Positions 65 to 5,281 of a stretch of 6,259 bases of DNA are shown here, one piece after another. The stretch lies in sequence record NC_007827.1; one strand, written 5' to 3'. The notes under the pieces are model-generated. The model was given only the letters and a program-made list of their open reading frames with translations, searched no databases and was not told where the DNA came from. This DNA is from Escherichia phage NC29. How positions within the stretch are numbered: the stretch's first letter is position 1; every line of letters starts with the position of its first letter. The position numbers were made by a program, and so were the translations under genes.

Positions 65-433
65 ATGAAACCCGCTCATCGCCTTACTCATCCAATTCTT
101 GGTTCTTGGTTGTTTAAGTGTCCTGTTTATATTCGTTATGAGTCGCTTCATCATGGTCGCCTTATCAAGGTCCGTGCTGTTCGTGATTTGTCCCCTCGTC
201 AACGATTGATTGCTAATCCTAAGAATTGCTTTGACGTTGTTATTGCTGAAATTGATCTTACTTATGAAACCGTTACTTGGTTTGATTTTATGGATGAGGA
301 ATATGCCGCGTGTACCCCCGAGGTTATGCAGCTTCTCATTTCCTCTATTGACTCTTCTGATGTTATTCGTTCTGTAGAAGACCCGACCGTTGATTCAGGT
401 GATATGGATTGGCTTTATGAAATTGTGGAGTAA
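65..433 (+). CDS. hypothetical protein, H-A spacer ORF1 (122 aa; basic N-terminal half, strongly acidic C-terminal half)
   Basis: ATG at 65 preceded by SD-like TAGGAG (52-57, 7-nt spacing); uninterrupted 122-codon frame ending TAA 431-433; third codon positions strongly T-biased like the core phage genes; no resemblance I can recognise to phiX174 proteins A-H. Confidence 0.6.
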   Translation: MKPAHRLTHPILGSWLFKCPVYIRYESLHHGRLIKVRAVRDLSPRQRLIANPKNCFDVVIAEIDLTYETVTWFDFMDEEYAACTPEVMQLLISSIDSSDVIRSVEDPTVDSGDMDWLYEIVE

Positions 434-436
434 TTT

Positions 437-529
437 ATGGAAACTGTTATCGGAAAATTTATTGCTCTGGCTGTTGTTGCTCTTATGCTGTATGGAATTT
501 CCCGCTTGATTAGTAGGACTTTGAAATGA
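437..529 (+). CDS. hypothetical small hydrophobic peptide, H-A spacer ORF2 (30 aa, METVIGKFIALAVVALMLYGISRLISRTLK)
   Basis: ATG 437 lies 3 nt after the ORF1 stop, with GGAG (427-430) at 6-nt spacing; a hydrophobic core long enough for one transmembrane helix followed by a basic tail; T-biased third positions. Below the 60-aa cutoff of the supplied ORF track, found by hand translation. Confidence 0.4.
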   Translation: METVIGKFIALAVVALMLYGISRLISRTLK

Positions 530-702
530 AGTATTTTAGCCTTGTGGATGAACACTATGCTTATTGCCCTGATTCGCGCATTTTGCACATCACTCGTAGT
601 CGTGTTTCTGACCCTCGGTATGAGCGTCGTTTTCTTACTGATGAGGAGCATCTTGCACTTCTGGATTGGTTGAAAAATCGCCCAACTTATATTAATTCTT
701 GA
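526..702 (+). CDS. hypothetical protein, H-A spacer ORF3 (58 aa, MKYFSLVDEHYAYCPDSRILHITRSRVSDPRYERRFLTDEEHLALLDWLKNRPTYINS)
   Basis: ATG 526-528 overlaps the ORF2 stop TGA 527-529 (ATGA coupling); AGGA (515-518) at 7-nt spacing; T-biased third positions; stop TGA 700-702. Found by hand translation. Confidence 0.5.
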   Translation: MKYFSLVDEHYAYCPDSRILHITRSRVSDPRYERRFLTDEEHLALLDWLKNRPTYINS

Positions 703-728
703 CAAGTCTTTGATACACCGTCTATATT
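699..728 (+). promoter_or_regulatory. sigma70-like promoter upstream of gene A (pA-like): TTGACA - 18 nt - TATATT
   Basis: -35 TTGACA at 699-704 (6/6 consensus), 18-nt spacer, -10 TATATT at 723-728 (5/6); position equivalent to phiX174 pA just upstream of gene A. Confidence 0.45.
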
Positions 729-759
729 GCCCTCATAGTGATTCTACGAGGGCTTTTTT
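729..759 (+). terminator. intrinsic terminator-like hairpin plus T6 tract (T_H-like) immediately upstream of the gene A start
   Basis: GCCCTC (729-734) pairs with GAGGGC (748-753) and TAG (736-738) with CTA (744-746), 5-nt loop, followed by TTTTTT 754-759; GC-rich stem plus U-tract is the classic rho-independent architecture. Confidence 0.55.
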
Positions 760-761
760 GC

Positions 762-2322: not shown

Positions 2323-2479
2323 GCAGCTTATGTTTTTGACTAAAGCTGACTTTACCAATGATGATGAAAAATGGCTTAATGCCTTTGGTAATTTGCTCCG
2401 TCAGTGGTTTCAGATTGAGGATTGGAAAGGTAATCACAAAAAATTGCTTGACGATTTGAAAAACAGGCATTATATTTAA
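2273..2479 (+). CDS. C: protein C (DNA replication switch / packaging)
   Basis: ATG 2273 with AGGAG (2261-2265) at 7-nt spacing; 68 aa; ...TKADFTNDDEKWLNAFGNLLRQWFQIEDW resembles phiX174 gpC ...KTDALDEEKWLNMLGTFVKDWFRYESH. The track ORF starts at GTG 2243; ATG 2273 preferred. Confidence 0.8.
   Translation: MLSSTRYYASYRATLTKQLMFLTKADFTNDDEKWLNAFGNLLRQWFQIEDWKGNHKKLLDDLKNRHYI
2448..2476 (+). promoter_or_regulatory. sigma70-like promoter at the 3' end of gene C (pD-like): TTGACG - 17 nt - TATATT
   Basis: -35 TTGACG 2448-2453 (5/6), 17-nt spacer, -10 TATATT 2471-2476 (5/6) overlapping the last codons of C; best promoter match I found in the window; pD lies within C in phiX174. Confidence 0.5.
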
Positions 2480-2712
2480 CTCATAGATAAATGAAGCAGT
2501 GGTGCAAAGTAGTTTATCTAAGTGGTAAGTTCAGTGAAGGGTGACCCGCTCTAAGTAGCTGAAGGGTGTTGGATGTAAGGACTCCGCGATTGACTGGTTT
2601 ATACTGGAACACTATCGGGTCAGTGAAGTGGCTGCTGAGAAATAGCCCTCTAGCTTTACGAAGACTAGGCTACATCGCGAACACCATTGTTACTTTTTTA
2701 TGGAGGATTTAT

Positions 2713-3171
2713 ATGTCTAATCTTGTTGCTACCGATGTTAATTTTGCTACCTCTGTTGCTGCTCTGAAGATGCTTCAGGCTTCTGCTGTTCTTGATATCA
2801 CTGAGGAAGATTTCGATTTTCTGACTGGTGATAAGATTTGGATTGCTACTGACCGCAATCGTGCTCGTCGTTGTGTTGAGGCGTGTGTTTATGGAACGCT
2901 GGACTTTGTTGGATACCCTCGCTTTCCTGCTCCTGTTGAGTTTATTGCTGCCGTCATTGCTTATTATGTTCATCCCGTCAACATTCAGACGGCCTGTCTC
3001 ATCATGGAAGGCGCTGAGTTTACGGAGAACATTGTTAATGGCGTCGAACGTCCGGTTAAAGCCGCTGAACTCTTTGCGTACACCTTGCGTGTTAAGGCTG
3101 GATTCAAAGAAACGGTTCTGAGTGCTGAAGATAATGCTCGTCAGAAACTTCGTGCAAGTGGAGTTATGTAA
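2713..3171 (+). CDS. D: external scaffolding protein D
   Basis: 152 aa; ATG 2713 with GGAGG (2702-2706) at 6-nt spacing; near-identical over long stretches to phiX174 gpD (LQASAVLD.TE.DFDFLT...WIATDR.RARRCVEACVYGTLDFVGYPRFPAPVEFIAAVIAYYVHPVNIQTACLIMEGAEFTEN). Confidence 0.95.
   Translation: MSNLVATDVNFATSVAALKMLQASAVLDITEEDFDFLTGDKIWIATDRNRARRCVEACVYGTLDFVGYPRFPAPVEFIAAVIAYYVHPVNIQTACLIMEGAEFTENIVNGVERPVKAAELFAYTLRVKAGFKETVLSAEDNARQKLRASGVM
2891..3121 (+). CDS. E: lysis protein E (embedded in D, +1 frame)
   Basis: 76 aa; MERWTLLDTLAFLLLLSLLLPSLLIMFIPSTFRRPVSSWKAL... is nearly identical to the phiX174 E N-terminal transmembrane domain, including the conserved Pro21. Confidence 0.85.
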   Translation: MERWTLLDTLAFLLLLSLLLPSLLIMFIPSTFRRPVSSWKALSLRRTLLMASNVRLKPLNSLRTPCVLRLDSKKRF

Positions 3172-3247: not shown

Positions 3248-3252
3248 TTAAT

Positions 3253-3278
3253 GGGCTTCGGCCCCTATAAGGATTTTT
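3253..3278 (+). terminator. cUUCGg tetraloop hairpin in the J-F spacer (T_J-like terminator or mRNA 3' stabiliser), overlapping the F ribosome-binding site
   Basis: GGGC (3253-3256) / TTCG loop / GCCC (3261-3264), then CTATAAGGATTTTT; SD TAAGGA 3268-3273 sits 7 nt before the F ATG. phiX174 has a terminator in the J-F spacer. Confidence 0.35.
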
Positions 3279-4570: not shown

Positions 4571-4587
4571 GGGGCTTCGGCCCCCTT
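4571..4587 (+). terminator. cUUCGg tetraloop hairpin in the F-G spacer (T_F-like terminator or mRNA 3' stabiliser)
   Basis: GGGGC (4571-4575) / TTCG loop / GCCCC (4580-4584), then CTTT; followed by SD TAAGGA 4588-4593, 7 nt before the G ATG; near-duplicate of the J-F module. Confidence 0.35.
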
Positions 4588-5146: not shown

Positions 5147-5160
5147 AAGGCCGCCGCACT

Positions 5161-5256
5161 CTCGGTTATATGCCTGCCCAGTGTAGGGCGGACCGAGCCG
5201 TACGGAGATACCCGTGAAACTAGGAACGTGGAAGGCGTTAGCCGCCTTCCCTCCTG
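5161..5256 (+). other. candidate complementary (-) strand origin: three consecutive stem-loops in the GC-rich G-H spacer
   Basis: Hairpins: CTCGGT 5161-5166 / ACCGAG 5192-5197 enclosing 5174-5179 / 5186-5191; ACGG 5202-5205 / CCGT 5212-5215; GGAAGGCG 5230-5237 / CGCCTTCC 5243-5250 (perfect 8-bp stem, 5-nt loop); CTG at 5254-5256 just 3' of the last hairpin. G4-type phages prime at a multi-hairpin origin with DnaG alone. Confidence 0.4.
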
Positions 5257-5281
5257 CTAAGCCCAAAGGAGACTTTCAGCT

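What the first reader, a model, noticed from the sequence alone, without database searches (positions are those of the whole stretch)
2448..2712. Unusually long, G-rich, repeat-laden C-D spacer downstream of the strongest promoter match
In phiX174, C and D abut. Here 233 nt separate them. The pD-like promoter (TTGACG-17-TATATT, 2448-2476) would start transcription near 2483, giving D mRNA a leader of about 230 nt. Within 2491-2580 I count about 31 G versus 10 C, with degenerate direct repeats: CTAAGTGG (2518-2525) / CTAAGTAG (2551-2558) / CAAAGTAG (2505-2512); GAAGGGTG twice (2537-2544, 2561-2568); CAGTGAAG twice (2532-2539, 2621-2628); AAGTGG twice (2520-2525, 2626-2631). An imperfect hairpin follows at 2643-2672, then the D SD. 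This looks like a protein- or RNA-binding array or a translational control leader for the most highly expressed genes (D, E, J, F, G, H), not decayed coding sequence, though a gene remnant cannot be excluded.
Basis: seen in the sequence. Interest (0 to 1): 0.6.

Follow-up and report, generated by a model that had tools for sequence, protein, structure and literature searches.

The report
Borrowed structured RNA leader in microvirus
The long C-D spacer of this alpha3-like single-stranded DNA phage is a folded, non-coding 5' leader RNA taken from tailed double-stranded DNA phages, where the same undescribed RNA sits right after an early host-type promoter, so a regulatory RNA module has crossed between two unrelated virus realms.

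Summary
C and D are 233 nt apart, against 26-73 nt in relatives. A 10/12 sigma-70 match ends at 2476. Bases 2491-2580 hold 31 G and 10 C, the strongest G-over-C skew in the genome.

The spacer is neither a DNA repeat array nor a decayed gene. The whole native D leader, from predicted transcript start to ATG, has been replaced. The new leader belongs to an RNA family absent from Rfam 15. I found it in Kuravirus, Vequintavirinae, Molineuxvirinae, Grimontviridae and Queuovirinae phages. It occurred once in each of the two genomes scanned whole and follows a -10 hexamer in every member.

Covariation is strong: 94.9% of cells paired and 15 of 16 pairs compensated.

Three other microvirus contigs carry the element. 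It diverges 3-4 times less than synonymous sites.

In 14 of 16 members the first helix starts 0-2 nt after the predicted start. My best reading (about 0.4) is a portable cis-acting leader. Its 5'-terminal hairpin would shield the D-operon mRNA from 5'-end-dependent decay, and its invariant loops would bind an unknown host factor. Antitermination and a decoy RNA remain open.

The parts
2448..2476 (+). pD-like sigma-70 promoter (TTGACG, 17-nt spacer, TATATT) inside the 3' end of gene C. The predicted start is A2483.
   Evidence: Scores 10/12 in the scan. It is homologous to the TTGACG...TACATT of element-less relatives. The -10 ends 16 nt before the invariant GAAG, as in most family members.
2481..2565 (+). 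Module 1 (M1): the 5'-terminal twin-hairpin module of the leader RNA.
   Evidence: Covariance model R1 scores it 74.5 bits, E 1.4e-12. On 15 sequences 94.9% of cells are paired and 15 of 16 pairs have compensatory changes.
2484..2520 (+). Hairpin 1. P1 pairs 2484-2492 with 2512-2520. The internal loop is GAA (2493-2495) opposite AAAGUA (2506-2511). The apical mini-stem pairs 2496-2498 with 2503-2505, with loop GUGG; the family consensus loop is GYGA, a GNRA type.
   Evidence: The minimum-energy fold from the predicted start leaves 1 unpaired 5' nt. The closing pair covaries as C-G, U-G, U-A and G-C, and the mini-stem covaries in K1-ULIP33.
2521..2529 (+). Linker AGUGGUAAG; the family consensus is GUAGUAAG.
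   Evidence: Alignment A3. This stretch varies among the four microvirus copies.
2530..2563 (+). Hairpin 2. P2 pairs 2530-2535 with 2558-2563. The internal loop is GAA (2536-2538) opposite UAAGUA (2552-2557). P3 pairs 2539-2541 with 2549-2551, with loop UGACCCG; the family loop is NAAUC.
   Evidence: RNAalifold and pair counts show compensatory changes in all 6 P2 pairs and all 4 P3 pairs. Within microviruses, G2540 to A turns a G-U pair into A-U.
2575..2619 (+). Start of module 2. It holds the conserved GUAAGGACUCC. P4 pairs 2584-2585 and 2587-2590 with 2614-2619, with G2586 bulged. Inside P4 lie UGA, then P5 (2594-2598 with 2603-2607, loop UUAU), then AACACU.
   Evidence: 100% of cells are paired on 8 sequences and two P4 pairs are compensated. 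The G-U pairs in P5 fit the + strand only.
2620..2648 (+). Conserved junction UCAGUGAAGUG and P6, which pairs 2630-2633 with 2644-2647 around the loop GCUGAGAAAU.
   Evidence: P6 is 100% paired and one pair is compensated (U-A against C-G). The variable N in UGAGNAA is the same position that varies family-wide.
2650..2668 (+). P7 hairpin CUAGCUU-UACG-AAG(A)CUAG, with a UNCG-type tetraloop and bulged A2664.
   Evidence: The same shape appears with different stem letters in RCIP0053, SA80RD and Era103 (UGCG loop) (sequences). This segment is nearest the Era103/RCIP0053 type.
2669..2690 (+). Conserved tail GCUACAUCGCGAAC followed by CACCAUUGU. In Molineuxvirinae-type relatives a canonical boxA follows this tail; there is none here.
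   Evidence: Alignments. boxA is absent from the window and present in relatives.
2691..2712 (+). A/U-rich stretch and a new Shine-Dalgarno sequence (GGAGG, 2702-2706) for D. It came in with the leader.
   Evidence: It replaces the ancestral TTAGGAGATTGTT. This is the most variable part among the microvirus copies.

Best explanation
Identity (confidence about 0.9): positions about 2481-2712 are a horizontally acquired, non-coding, structured 5' untranslated leader RNA. In one Alphatrevirus sub-lineage it replaced the native 26-43-nt D leader exactly from the transcript start to the ATG. It belongs to an undescribed modular family of early-leader RNAs of lytic tailed phages of Enterobacterales.

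Mechanism (confidence about 0.4, inferred): the leader acts in cis on the transcript it heads. Host RNA polymerase starts at about A2483. The first helix, P1, closes on nucleotides +2 to +10, so the triphosphate end is buried in a hairpin. That hinders pyrophosphate removal and 5'-end-dependent RNase E attack, so the D-E-J-F-G-H mRNA lasts longer. The rest of the 230-nt untranslated stretch is G-rich, C-poor and folded. That makes it a poor loading site for Rho. The invariant GAA/AAGUA loops and apical loops are too conserved for a simple hairpin. They most likely bind a host factor shared by all these phages' hosts, because the microvirus brings no partner protein.

Shown here: foreign origin, structure, constraint, and position relative to the promoter.
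Inferred: transcription from 2483, stabilisation, Rho avoidance, and factor binding.
For: Foreign origin:
- BLAST of the spacer hits only unannotated intergenic DNA of Kuravirus phages (76-79% identity over 157 nt, E 5e-23) and partial matches in other tailed phages.
- No match in 5,426 E. coli genomes or 72,556 plasmids.
- Relatives with an identical D protein have a 42-43-nt spacer with a different Shine-Dalgarno sequence.

Structure:
- M1: 94.9% of cells paired and 15 of 16 pairs compensated; 0 of 500 shuffles reach this, and slid controls give 25-49%.
- P4-P6: 100% paired with 4 compensated pairs.
- About 21 G-U cells fit the + strand only.

Non-coding: 3-17 stops in every frame of every homologue.

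Family:
- R1 gives 39.6-90 bits for true members and at most 28 bits for chance loci.
- There is exactly one copy in each of the whole MN03 and RCIP0053 genomes, at the head of the early operon.

Position at the 5' end:
- The -10 hexamer ends 14-17 nt before the invariant GAAG in 14 of 16 members. A 70-nt window with a match of at least 10/12 has background frequency 0.006.
- P1 starts 0-2 nt after the predicted start in 14 of 16 members.
- The native microvirus D leaders of ID21/L046, alpha3 and St-1 have 7-8 unpaired 5' nt and no 5' hairpin.

Constraint in the microvirus:
- Four independent assemblies carry the element.
- Core divergence is 4.4-6.4% against 11-26% at third codon positions. 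Fisher p = 8e-8, 0.008 and 0.003.
- 15 of 20 variable sites are unpaired, and 3 of the 5 paired ones only interchange A-U and G-U.

Composition: G/C is 1.03-1.66 in every leader of the family.

Established knowledge: a base-paired 5' end slows RNase E by more than tenfold, and 5'-terminal stem-loops stabilise ompA and papA mRNAs (review PMC3997798, section 6 and references 92-95).
Against: - No transcript end, half-life or expression measurement exists for any member.
- All start sites are predicted from -10 hexamers. Two members (Bas89, Reminis) do not fit the spacing with the best-scoring promoter.
- A protective 5' hairpin needs no particular sequence. Stabilisation alone therefore does not explain the invariant 20-nt loop, the second hairpin or module 2.
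- The single-sequence fold of the window's leader is no more stable than shuffles (z = +0.33).
- The window's copy departs from the family consensus in both apical loops: GUGG instead of GYGA, and UGACCCG instead of NAAUC.
- The low divergence among microvirus copies could partly reflect recent spread by recombination. L044 is a recombinant.
Confidence: 0.4

Rival explanations
1. Processive antitermination or anti-Rho leader. The nascent twin-hairpin RNA, alone like HK022 put or together with Nus factors like rrn/lambda nut, modifies host RNA polymerase. The polymerase then reads through the weak terminators after J, F, G and H, or through the long early operons of the tailed phages.
For: - The module is about 84 nt, has two hairpins and lies directly after an early sigma-70 promoter. 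putL is about 70 nt, has two stem-loops and lies just downstream of PL (PMC9378689).
- It heads a very long operon in MN03.
- A canonical boxA (YGCTCTTTAACAA) follows the element directly in RCIP0053, Reminis, Nufs112 and K1-ULIP33. The same boxA occurs in T7 and in the rrnH leader.
- It must work with host factors only, because the microvirus has no extra gene.
Against: - R1 finds nothing in the whole HK022 genome, so there is no homology to put.
- The window has no boxA within 3 mismatches beyond chance.
- In Kuravirus loci the nearest boxA lies about 2.3 kb downstream.
- An antiterminator does not need to begin at +2 of the transcript.
Confidence: 0.2
2. Trans-acting decoy or sponge RNA. 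As the first and most abundant thing transcribed, the leader is a mimic that titrates a host nuclease, RNA-binding protein or RNA-sensing defence system. The invariant loops are the bait.
For: - The loop sequence is invariant across six phage groups while the stems vary.
- It is always the first transcribed sequence of the early region, where anti-defence functions usually sit.
- The GAA/UAAGUA loop resembles a 23S rRNA hairpin, GGGG-GAA-CUGAAACAUC-UAAGUA-CCCC (16.7 bits, E 0.012 in 5.9 kb).
- Such an RNA would be a very cheap anti-host function for a 6-kb genome.
Against: - No partner is known.
- There is no terminator or processing site that would release a discrete small RNA.
- Rfam, including type III antitoxin RNAs, gives nothing.
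- The rRNA resemblance is borderline: E is 0.27 in the larger search.
- There is no rRNA complementarity beyond shuffles.
Confidence: 0.12
3. Ligand- or condition-sensing leader (a riboswitch or translational control element) that tunes D-operon expression.
For: - It is a multi-helix RNA with conserved junction and loop nucleotides and variable stems, as in aptamers.
- P6 and an extended P7 (2643-2646 with 2669-2672) are mutually exclusive pairings, both possible in the window and in MN03 (read from the sequence).
- SD-like UAAGGA is conserved.
Against: - No expression platform is visible. No terminator follows, and the scan finds none in 2480-2712.
- There is no conserved helix that sequesters the Shine-Dalgarno sequence.
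- The modules occur independently: M1 alone in L010 and Nufs112, and BLAST-detectable module 2 without a BLAST-detectable M1 in some Klebsiella phages and in Rtp.
- No long-range loop-to-tail pairing beyond chance.
Confidence: 0.1
4. Neutral passenger. The spacer is a recent illegitimate-recombination scar with no function in the microvirus.
For: - The closest relatives do well without it.
- The window's copy deviates from consensus in both apical loops.
- L044 shows that recombination moves this region between backgrounds.
Against: - Microvirus genomes are tightly size-limited, yet the element is kept in four independent samples.
- It evolves 3-4 times more slowly than synonymous sites, and the substitutions preserve structure.
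- The swap is exact from transcript start to ATG and brings its own Shine-Dalgarno sequence.
Confidence: 0.08
5. A DNA-level element (a protein-binding repeat array, or a single-strand initiation signal or origin in the packaged + strand), or a decayed gene or N-terminal extension of D from the in-frame GTG at 2566.
For: - The + strand is single-stranded in the virion, so the hairpins could form in DNA.
- The frame is open from 2566 into D.
Against: - The same element sits in dsDNA phages at a fixed distance from a promoter, on the sense strand of the downstream genes.
- G-U pairs mark the sense strand.
- No frame is conserved.
- The GTG at 2566 has no Shine-Dalgarno sequence, and L044 breaks the frame.
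Confidence: 0.04

Closest known systems
5'-terminal stabiliser hairpins of E. coli mRNAs (ompA and papA 5' UTRs)
   Same: A stem-loop begins within 0-2 nt of the transcript start, on a long untranslated leader of a highly expressed message. The expected effect is protection from 5'-end-dependent RNase E decay (PMC3997798).
   Different: Those hairpins need no specific sequence. Here a 20-nt loop is invariant across phage groups, there is a second matching hairpin, and about 120 nt more of conserved structure follows. There is no sequence relation, and the function is untested.
HK022 putL/putR antiterminator RNAs
   Same: A cis-acting RNA of about 70-85 nt with two stem-loops, placed directly after an early sigma-70 promoter. 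It works with host RNA polymerase alone (PMC9378689).
   Different: The M1 model does not match anywhere in the HK022 genome. The loops are a different motif, and antitermination is not shown.
rrn / lambda / T7 boxA-containing leaders (Nus-factor antitermination sites)
   Same: In Molineuxvirinae-type relatives the element is followed at once by the canonical boxA found in the rrnH leader and at T7 812-824. The P4 loop AUGAAA(A/C)AGG loosely recalls a boxB loop.
   Different: The window and the Kuravirus copies have no boxA next to the element. M1 has no counterpart in rrn, lambda or T7 leaders.
Sarcin-ricin / loop E (bulged-G, S-turn) internal loop motif, as in a 23S rRNA domain I hairpin
   Same: The signature GAA opposite (N)AAGUA is flanked by Watson-Crick pairs in both hairpins. 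There is a weak model match to 23S GGGG-GAA-CUGAAACAUC-UAAGUA-CCCC.
   Different: This is motif-level resemblance only. Two extra unpaired bases lie on the long strand, the score is borderline, and the three-dimensional structure is not known.
Mobile promoter/stem-loop regulatory cassettes of T4-type phages (PeSLs; recalled from memory)
   Same: Short non-coding regulatory modules at early promoters that move between phage genomes.
   Different: Those are a promoter plus a simple stem-loop within one phage group. Here the promoter is native, only the transcribed leader moved, and it crossed from dsDNA phages into an ssDNA phage.
Native C-D junction and pD leader of Bullavirinae (phiX174, alpha3, St-1, ID21, NC3)
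   Same: The same promoter position at the end of gene C, and the same downstream operon.
   Different: The native leaders are 26-73 nt. Those of ID21/L046, alpha3 and St-1 are unstructured at the 5' end, while NC3's tripled leader does fold from its 5' end. They share no sequence with the element.

Membership tests
New phage early-leader RNA family (defined here by model R1) | Twin hairpins, each with a GAA/(N)AAGUA internal loop; the invariant loop GAAGCAGYGRUGCAAAGUAG; the GUAGUAAG linker | tested here: met
   The window scores 74.5 bits (E 1.4e-12). Chance loci holding the 19-mer score at most 28 bits.
New phage early-leader RNA family (defined here by model R1) | Lies directly after a sigma-70 -10 hexamer, with P1 starting at the transcript start, on the sense strand of the downstream operon | tested here: met
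   The -10 ends 16 nt before GAAG in the window and 14-17 nt before it in 14 of 16 members. There is 1 unpaired 5' nt in the window. Start sites are predicted, not mapped.
HK022 put antiterminator RNA | Sequence and structure homology to putL/putR | tested here: not met
   R1 gives no match at E up to 1 in the complete HK022 genome (L050). Rfam offers no put match for the window.
HK022 put antiterminator RNA | Suppresses pausing and termination by binding RNA polymerase in cis | not testable with these tools
   This needs in vitro transcription or reporter read-through assays.
boxA/nut-type Nus-factor antitermination leader | boxA consensus (GCUCUUUAACAA or CGCUCUUA) in the leader | tested here: not met
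   The window has no match better than 3 mismatches, none lies in 2480-2712, and the count is below the chance expectation. The feature is met in relatives L005, L006, L038 and L042.
Any Rfam 15 family (riboswitches, ribozymes, small RNAs, type III antitoxins, leaders) | Covariance-model match | tested here: not met
   Nothing is relevant at E up to 1 on the window, at E up to 10 on 2440-2730, or at E up to 1 on 13 related loci. There is no tRNA or tmRNA.
5'-terminal mRNA stabiliser hairpin | [quoted passage not shown] | tested here: met
   P1 has 9 pairs, the hairpin folds at -8.8 kcal/mol, and 1 nt is unpaired at the 5' end. There are 0-2 unpaired nt in 14 of 16 members. This depends on predicted start sites.
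5'-terminal mRNA stabiliser hairpin | Prolongs mRNA half-life in a 5'-end-dependent way | not testable with these tools
   This needs rifampicin-chase half-lives in wild-type, rppH and rne 5'-sensor hosts.
Sarcin-ricin / loop E motif | AGUA opposite GAA, closed by Watson-Crick pairs | tested here: met
   The sequence signature is present in both hairpins. The closing pairs covary (columns 12-32 and 56-79). The three-dimensional fold is not testable here.
Protein-coding remnant or extension of D | A reading frame conserved among homologues | tested here: not met
   Every forward frame of all 13 leaders has 3-17 stops.
Intrinsic terminator or attenuator | A GC-rich hairpin followed by a T run | tested here: not met
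   The scan finds no terminator-like site in 2480-2712. P7 is followed by GCUACAUC.

The most novel reading that the evidence does not exclude
M1 is a compact, portable RNA that binds a conserved host machine through its invariant GAA/AAGUA loops. The target could be RNA polymerase (a new put-like antiterminator class) or a host nuclease or defence sensor (an RNA decoy). Under this reading, lytic phages from two virus realms trade the RNA as a plug-in 5' cassette that makes any sigma-70 transcript 'phage-grade'.
Probability: 0.3. Interest if true: 0.85.

Novelty: new variant of a known kind. Interest (0 to 1): 0.7.

Why it matters
Three reasons.

1. It defines a well-supported structured RNA family that Rfam 15 lacks. 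The family sits at the very start of the early transcripts of many lytic coliphages and of Klebsiella, Erwinia, Pantoea and Salmonella phages. Its function is unknown, and its invariant loops point to a shared host target.

2. It shows a non-coding regulatory module moving from tailed dsDNA phages into an 11-gene ssDNA microvirus, where it is kept under constraint. Exchange between these two realms is rarely documented. I know of no reported case involving a UTR.

3. The microvirus is an ideal test bed. It has one promoter, one leader, no phage partner protein and natural element-less sister genomes, so the leader's effect on mRNA life, read-through and burst size can be measured directly. If the leader boosts expression, it is also a ready-made part for synthetic biology.

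Tried and rejected
- Rfam at three sensitivities, and ARAGORN: nothing.
- Host or plasmid origin: no BLAST match in E. coli genomes or plasmids, with either the window or the MN03 version as query.
- Unusual thermodynamic stability: the whole-leader fold has z = +0.33 on the + strand and -0.08 on the - strand.
- Base-pairing with rRNA or tRNA of the rrnH operon: best duplexes are no better than shuffles.
- Long-range pairing of the M1 loop with the leader tail or boxA. This looked attractive in the window and in RCIP0053, but it is not consistent across members and not above shuffles.
- A kissing contact between the two apical loops (GAU/AUC in the consensus, GGU/ACC in the window). It rests on one lineage only and fails in K1-ULIP33 and SA80RD, so I do not claim it.
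- More members in IMG/VR. Four scans gave one true hit (L009, an IMG/VR contig identical over the 320 nt shown to metagenome contig L018) and 14 chance hits that R1 rejects.
- The metagenome and genome scans with the 19-mer gave 8 true hits and 19 chance hits.
- Literature searches for the sequence itself, for Kuravirus non-coding RNA, and for boxA in T7 early leaders found no prior description. One search was too unspecific to be useful.
- A 2026 Alphatrevirus isolate paper describes a different phage of 6085 bp.
- Homology to put: rejected.
- ToxI-like antitoxin repeats: a superficial resemblance falls in the variable P1 strand, and Rfam's antitoxin models do not match.
Full report
**1. What the window is**

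The 6259-nt window is a complete alpha3-like microvirus (Bullavirinae, Alphatrevirus). It is 92-93% identical to coliphages NC3 and ID32 over 96% of its length. The gene order is A, B, K, C (2273-2479), D (2713-3171), E, J, F, G, H (compare). The part that does not align to relatives is the C-D spacer.

**2. Check of the observation**

- The spacer is 233 nt.
- TTGACG-17-TATATT lies at 2448-2476.
- Bases 2491-2580 hold 31 G and 10 C, rank 2 of 6169 ninety-nt windows for G minus C.
- Every repeat is where stated, except GAAGGGTG, which is at 2536-2543.
- The promoter match is the second best, not the best: 10/12 against 11/12 at 699-728.
- In relatives the spacer is 26 nt (alpha3 and St-1), 42-43 nt (ID21 and three contigs with an identical D protein) or 73 nt (NC3). 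NC3's extra length comes from a tripled 15-mer.

**3. The spacer is foreign**

The spacer does not align to the short spacers of relatives at all. Homology stops at the stop codon of C and resumes at the ATG of D, and the Shine-Dalgarno sequence is different. So the whole leader was replaced; nothing was inserted into the old one.

BLAST of the spacer against 50,697 phage records hits no microvirus beyond the end of gene C. Instead it hits unannotated intergenic DNA of Kuravirus podophages (MN03, FS2B, XT18/32/73, SDYTW1, Bas89) at 75-79% identity over 157 nt, E down to 5e-23. It also gives partial matches in Vequintavirinae.

Searching again with those copies adds more carriers:
- Klebsiella, Erwinia and Pantoea phages of the Autographiviridae (those classified to subfamily are Molineuxvirinae).
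- "Ralstonia" and "Pseudomonas" phage records that resemble the Klebsiella ones.
- Grimontviridae.
- Seuratvirus.
- The T1-like phage Rtp.

There is no match in 5,426 complete E. coli genomes or in 72,556 plasmids.

In every tailed phage the match is on the sense strand, just upstream of the first small genes of the early region. It often lies close to the terminal repeat. In MN03 it heads the long leftward operon, and in RCIP0053 it precedes the genes that lead to the phage RNA polymerase.

**4. It is a structured RNA and it does not code**

All three forward frames of all 13 leaders examined have 3-17 stops.

An alignment of the 5' 85 nt from 15 phages folds into two tandem hairpins. I added the base of the first helix by hand and counted pairs:
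- 94.9% of 237 cells are paired.
- 15 of 16 pairs have changes on both sides.
- None of 500 shuffles reaches any of the five measures.
- Sliding the partners gives only 25-49% paired.

Both hairpins have the same internal loop: GAA on the 5' side and (N)AAGUA on the 3' side. Closing pairs covary as C-G, U-G, U-A and G-C. This is the sequence signature of a sarcin-ricin/loop E (S-turn) motif. That assignment rests on established motif knowledge, not on a structure.

The first hairpin carries an invariant 20-nt loop, GAAGCAGYGRUGCAAAGUAG. Within it is a 3-bp mini-stem capped by GYGA. The mini-stem covaries in K1-ULIP33 (GUG/CAC).

Downstream, the window shares further helices with the Kuravirus copies:
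- P4, with a bulged G.
- P5, inserted in the P4 loop.
- P6, with the loop CUGAGNAAU.

These are 100% paired in 8 sequences, with 4 compensated pairs.

P7 (2650-2668) has a UACG tetraloop and a bulged A. The same shape recurs with different stem letters in RCIP0053, SA80RD and Era103.

About 21 G-U cells in module 1, and the G-U pairs of P5, would be A-C mismatches on the other strand. So the + sense strand is the one that folds.

The window's copy is a mosaic. M1 through P6 is nearest the Kuravirus type, and P7 plus the tail is nearest the Era103/RCIP0053 type. The true donor is therefore unsampled.

**5. It is a distinct family, unknown to Rfam**

Rfam 15 gives nothing for the window at E up to 1, for the spacer at E up to 10, or for 13 related loci.

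A covariance model of module 1 (R1) separates members from chance:
- True members score 39.6-90 bits; the window scores 74.5.
- Loci that merely contain the 19-mer score at most 28 bits.
- There is no hit in HK022, in the T7 left end, or in element-less microviruses.
- There is exactly one copy in each of the two whole genomes scanned.

The modules are separable:
- M1 alone precedes a gene in metagenome contig L010.
- M1 plus boxA occurs in Nufs112.
- One hairpin plus a different module 2 occurs in Rtp.
- Some Klebsiella phages match by BLAST only over module 2.

**6. Position relative to the promoter**

In all 16 members examined a -10 hexamer precedes the element. Its last base lies 14-17 nt, most often 16 nt, before the invariant GAAG in 14 of them. 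Only 0.6% of random 70-nt windows in these loci hold a match of at least 10/12.

Taking the start as the seventh base after the -10, the minimum-energy fold of the first 45 nt always gives P1 around the invariant loop. [quoted passage not shown]

The promoter sequences themselves differ between phages. In the microvirus the promoter is the native one at the end of gene C. So what is conserved is the register between the transcript start and the first helix.

The native D leaders of ID21-type phages, alpha3 and St-1 have 7-8 unpaired 5' nucleotides and no 5' hairpin.

**7. It is kept under constraint in the microvirus**

Protein C of the window is encoded on three other contigs from independent sequencing runs, and all three carry the element (alignment). 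This argues against an assembly artefact.

Against the window, the element core differs by 4.4-6.4%. Third codon positions of A and C differ by 11-26%. Fisher p values are 8e-8, 0.008 and 0.003.

Of 20 variable sites, 15 are unpaired. Of the 5 paired ones, 3 only interchange A-U and G-U, 1 is an alignment artefact in a T run, and 1 opens the outermost P1 pair.

L044 is a recombinant. Its A-C-element part is about 5% from the window and its F gene is 28% away. The breakpoint lies at the 3' end of the element. So the element also travels between microvirus backgrounds, and recent spread may explain part of its low divergence.

**8. How it most likely works**

Shown: a foreign, folded, constrained leader whose first helix begins at the predicted transcript start.

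Inferred: it acts in cis on the mRNA it heads.

The best-supported single step is 5'-end protection. A base-paired 5' end slows RNase E more than tenfold, and 5'-terminal stem-loops stabilise ompA and papA mRNAs (PMC3997798). The need for such a hairpin to sit at the extreme 5' end is exactly the register constraint seen here.

The G-rich, C-poor, folded body has G/C of 1.03-1.66 across the family. That is what a long untranslated leader needs to avoid Rho loading. This rests on established knowledge of Rho's preference for C-rich unstructured RNA and was not tested here.

This does not explain the invariant loops, the second hairpin or module 2. I infer a host factor, because the 11-gene microvirus supplies no partner. 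I put about 0.9 on the identity and about 0.4 on this mechanism.

**9. Rivals**

- **Processive antitermination** is the main rival (0.2). Size, two hairpins and promoter-proximal position recall putL (PMC9378689), and a canonical boxA follows the element in Molineuxvirinae-type phages. Against it: no homology to put, no boxA in the window, and no reason for an antiterminator to start at +2.
- **A trans-acting decoy** (0.12) fits the invariant loops and the "first thing transcribed" position. The weak match to a 23S rRNA hairpin with the same GAA/UAAGUA loop (16.7 bits) is a lead only. I take that hairpin to be helix 11 from memory; helix 11 is reported to contact helix 37 (PMC9935924).
- **A riboswitch-like sensor** (0.1) lacks an expression platform.
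- **A neutral passenger** (0.08) is contradicted by the constraint.
- **DNA-level or coding readings** (0.04) are contradicted by strand, context and stop codons.

**10. Comparison with what is known, and novelty**

The element works most like a 5'-terminal stabiliser leader, and possibly like put. It is a member of neither family by sequence or structure.

No paper in the searchable library prints its sequence or describes it. I rate it a new variant of a known kind, namely structured promoter-proximal leader RNAs of phage early operons. The surprising additions are its transfer into, and retention by, an ssDNA microvirus. Interest 0.7.

Noticed in passing
window 699-760: The best promoter match of the genome (TTGACA-18-TATATT, 11/12, presumably pA) is followed at 729-755 by a GC-rich hairpin (GCCCTC...GAGGGC) and TTTTTT. 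A terminator-like structure therefore overlaps the start region of the A transcript. The scan tool did not list it.
   Followed up: no
window 3252-3264 and 4571-4585: The J-F and F-G spacers each hold a GGGCTTCGGCCC-type hairpin with a UUCG tetraloop and no clear T run. This fits the weak terminator or mRNA 3' stabiliser hairpins of Bullavirinae.
   Followed up: no
window 5147-5281: The 135-nt G-H spacer is GC-rich with several inverted repeats. It looks like the primase-dependent complementary-strand origin region of G4/alpha3-type phages.
   Followed up: no
window 65-702: Three small ORFs lie in the H-A region (122, 30 and 58 aa). Related Logan contigs call them as genes, without Pfam hits.
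   Followed up: no
L001 (NC3), about 2465-2515: NC3's 73-nt C-D spacer arises from three tandem copies of TACATTTGAGCTCTC, that is, of the -10 hexamer plus the stop codon of C. This gives three -10-like hexamers in a row.
   Followed up: partly
L044 (Logan SRR26165461 contig): This is a recombinant microvirus. A, B, C and the leader are about 5% from the window, D is about 16% away and F about 28% away. The breakpoint lies at the 3' end of the leader.
   Followed up: partly
L005 2140-2165, L037, L042, L004, L041: In the Molineuxvirinae-type and rV5/Seurat-type leaders, the conserved 11-nt hairpin loop UUGAG(N)AAGGG is complementary to a downstream CCUUCUC, with N bulged. This is a likely pseudoknot. 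The sequence also resembles an anti-Shine-Dalgarno. It is absent from the window's version.
   Followed up: partly
L039 (Salmonella phage SE131) 1-2245 and L007: More than 1 kb of unannotated DNA follows the element at the genome start of the Grimontviridae phages, so further non-coding RNAs are possible there.
   Followed up: no
L002 5440, L003 4857, L010 13470, L011 5402 and 5636: A canonical rrn-type boxA (YGCTCTTTAACAA) occurs inside the Kuravirus early operon, about 2.3 kb downstream of the leader on the same strand.
   Followed up: no
L006 (Ralstonia phage Reminis) and Pseudomonas phage MR4 (hit H73): Their leaders are 85-95% identical to those of Klebsiella phages. That is unexpected for the hosts named in the records.
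   Followed up: no
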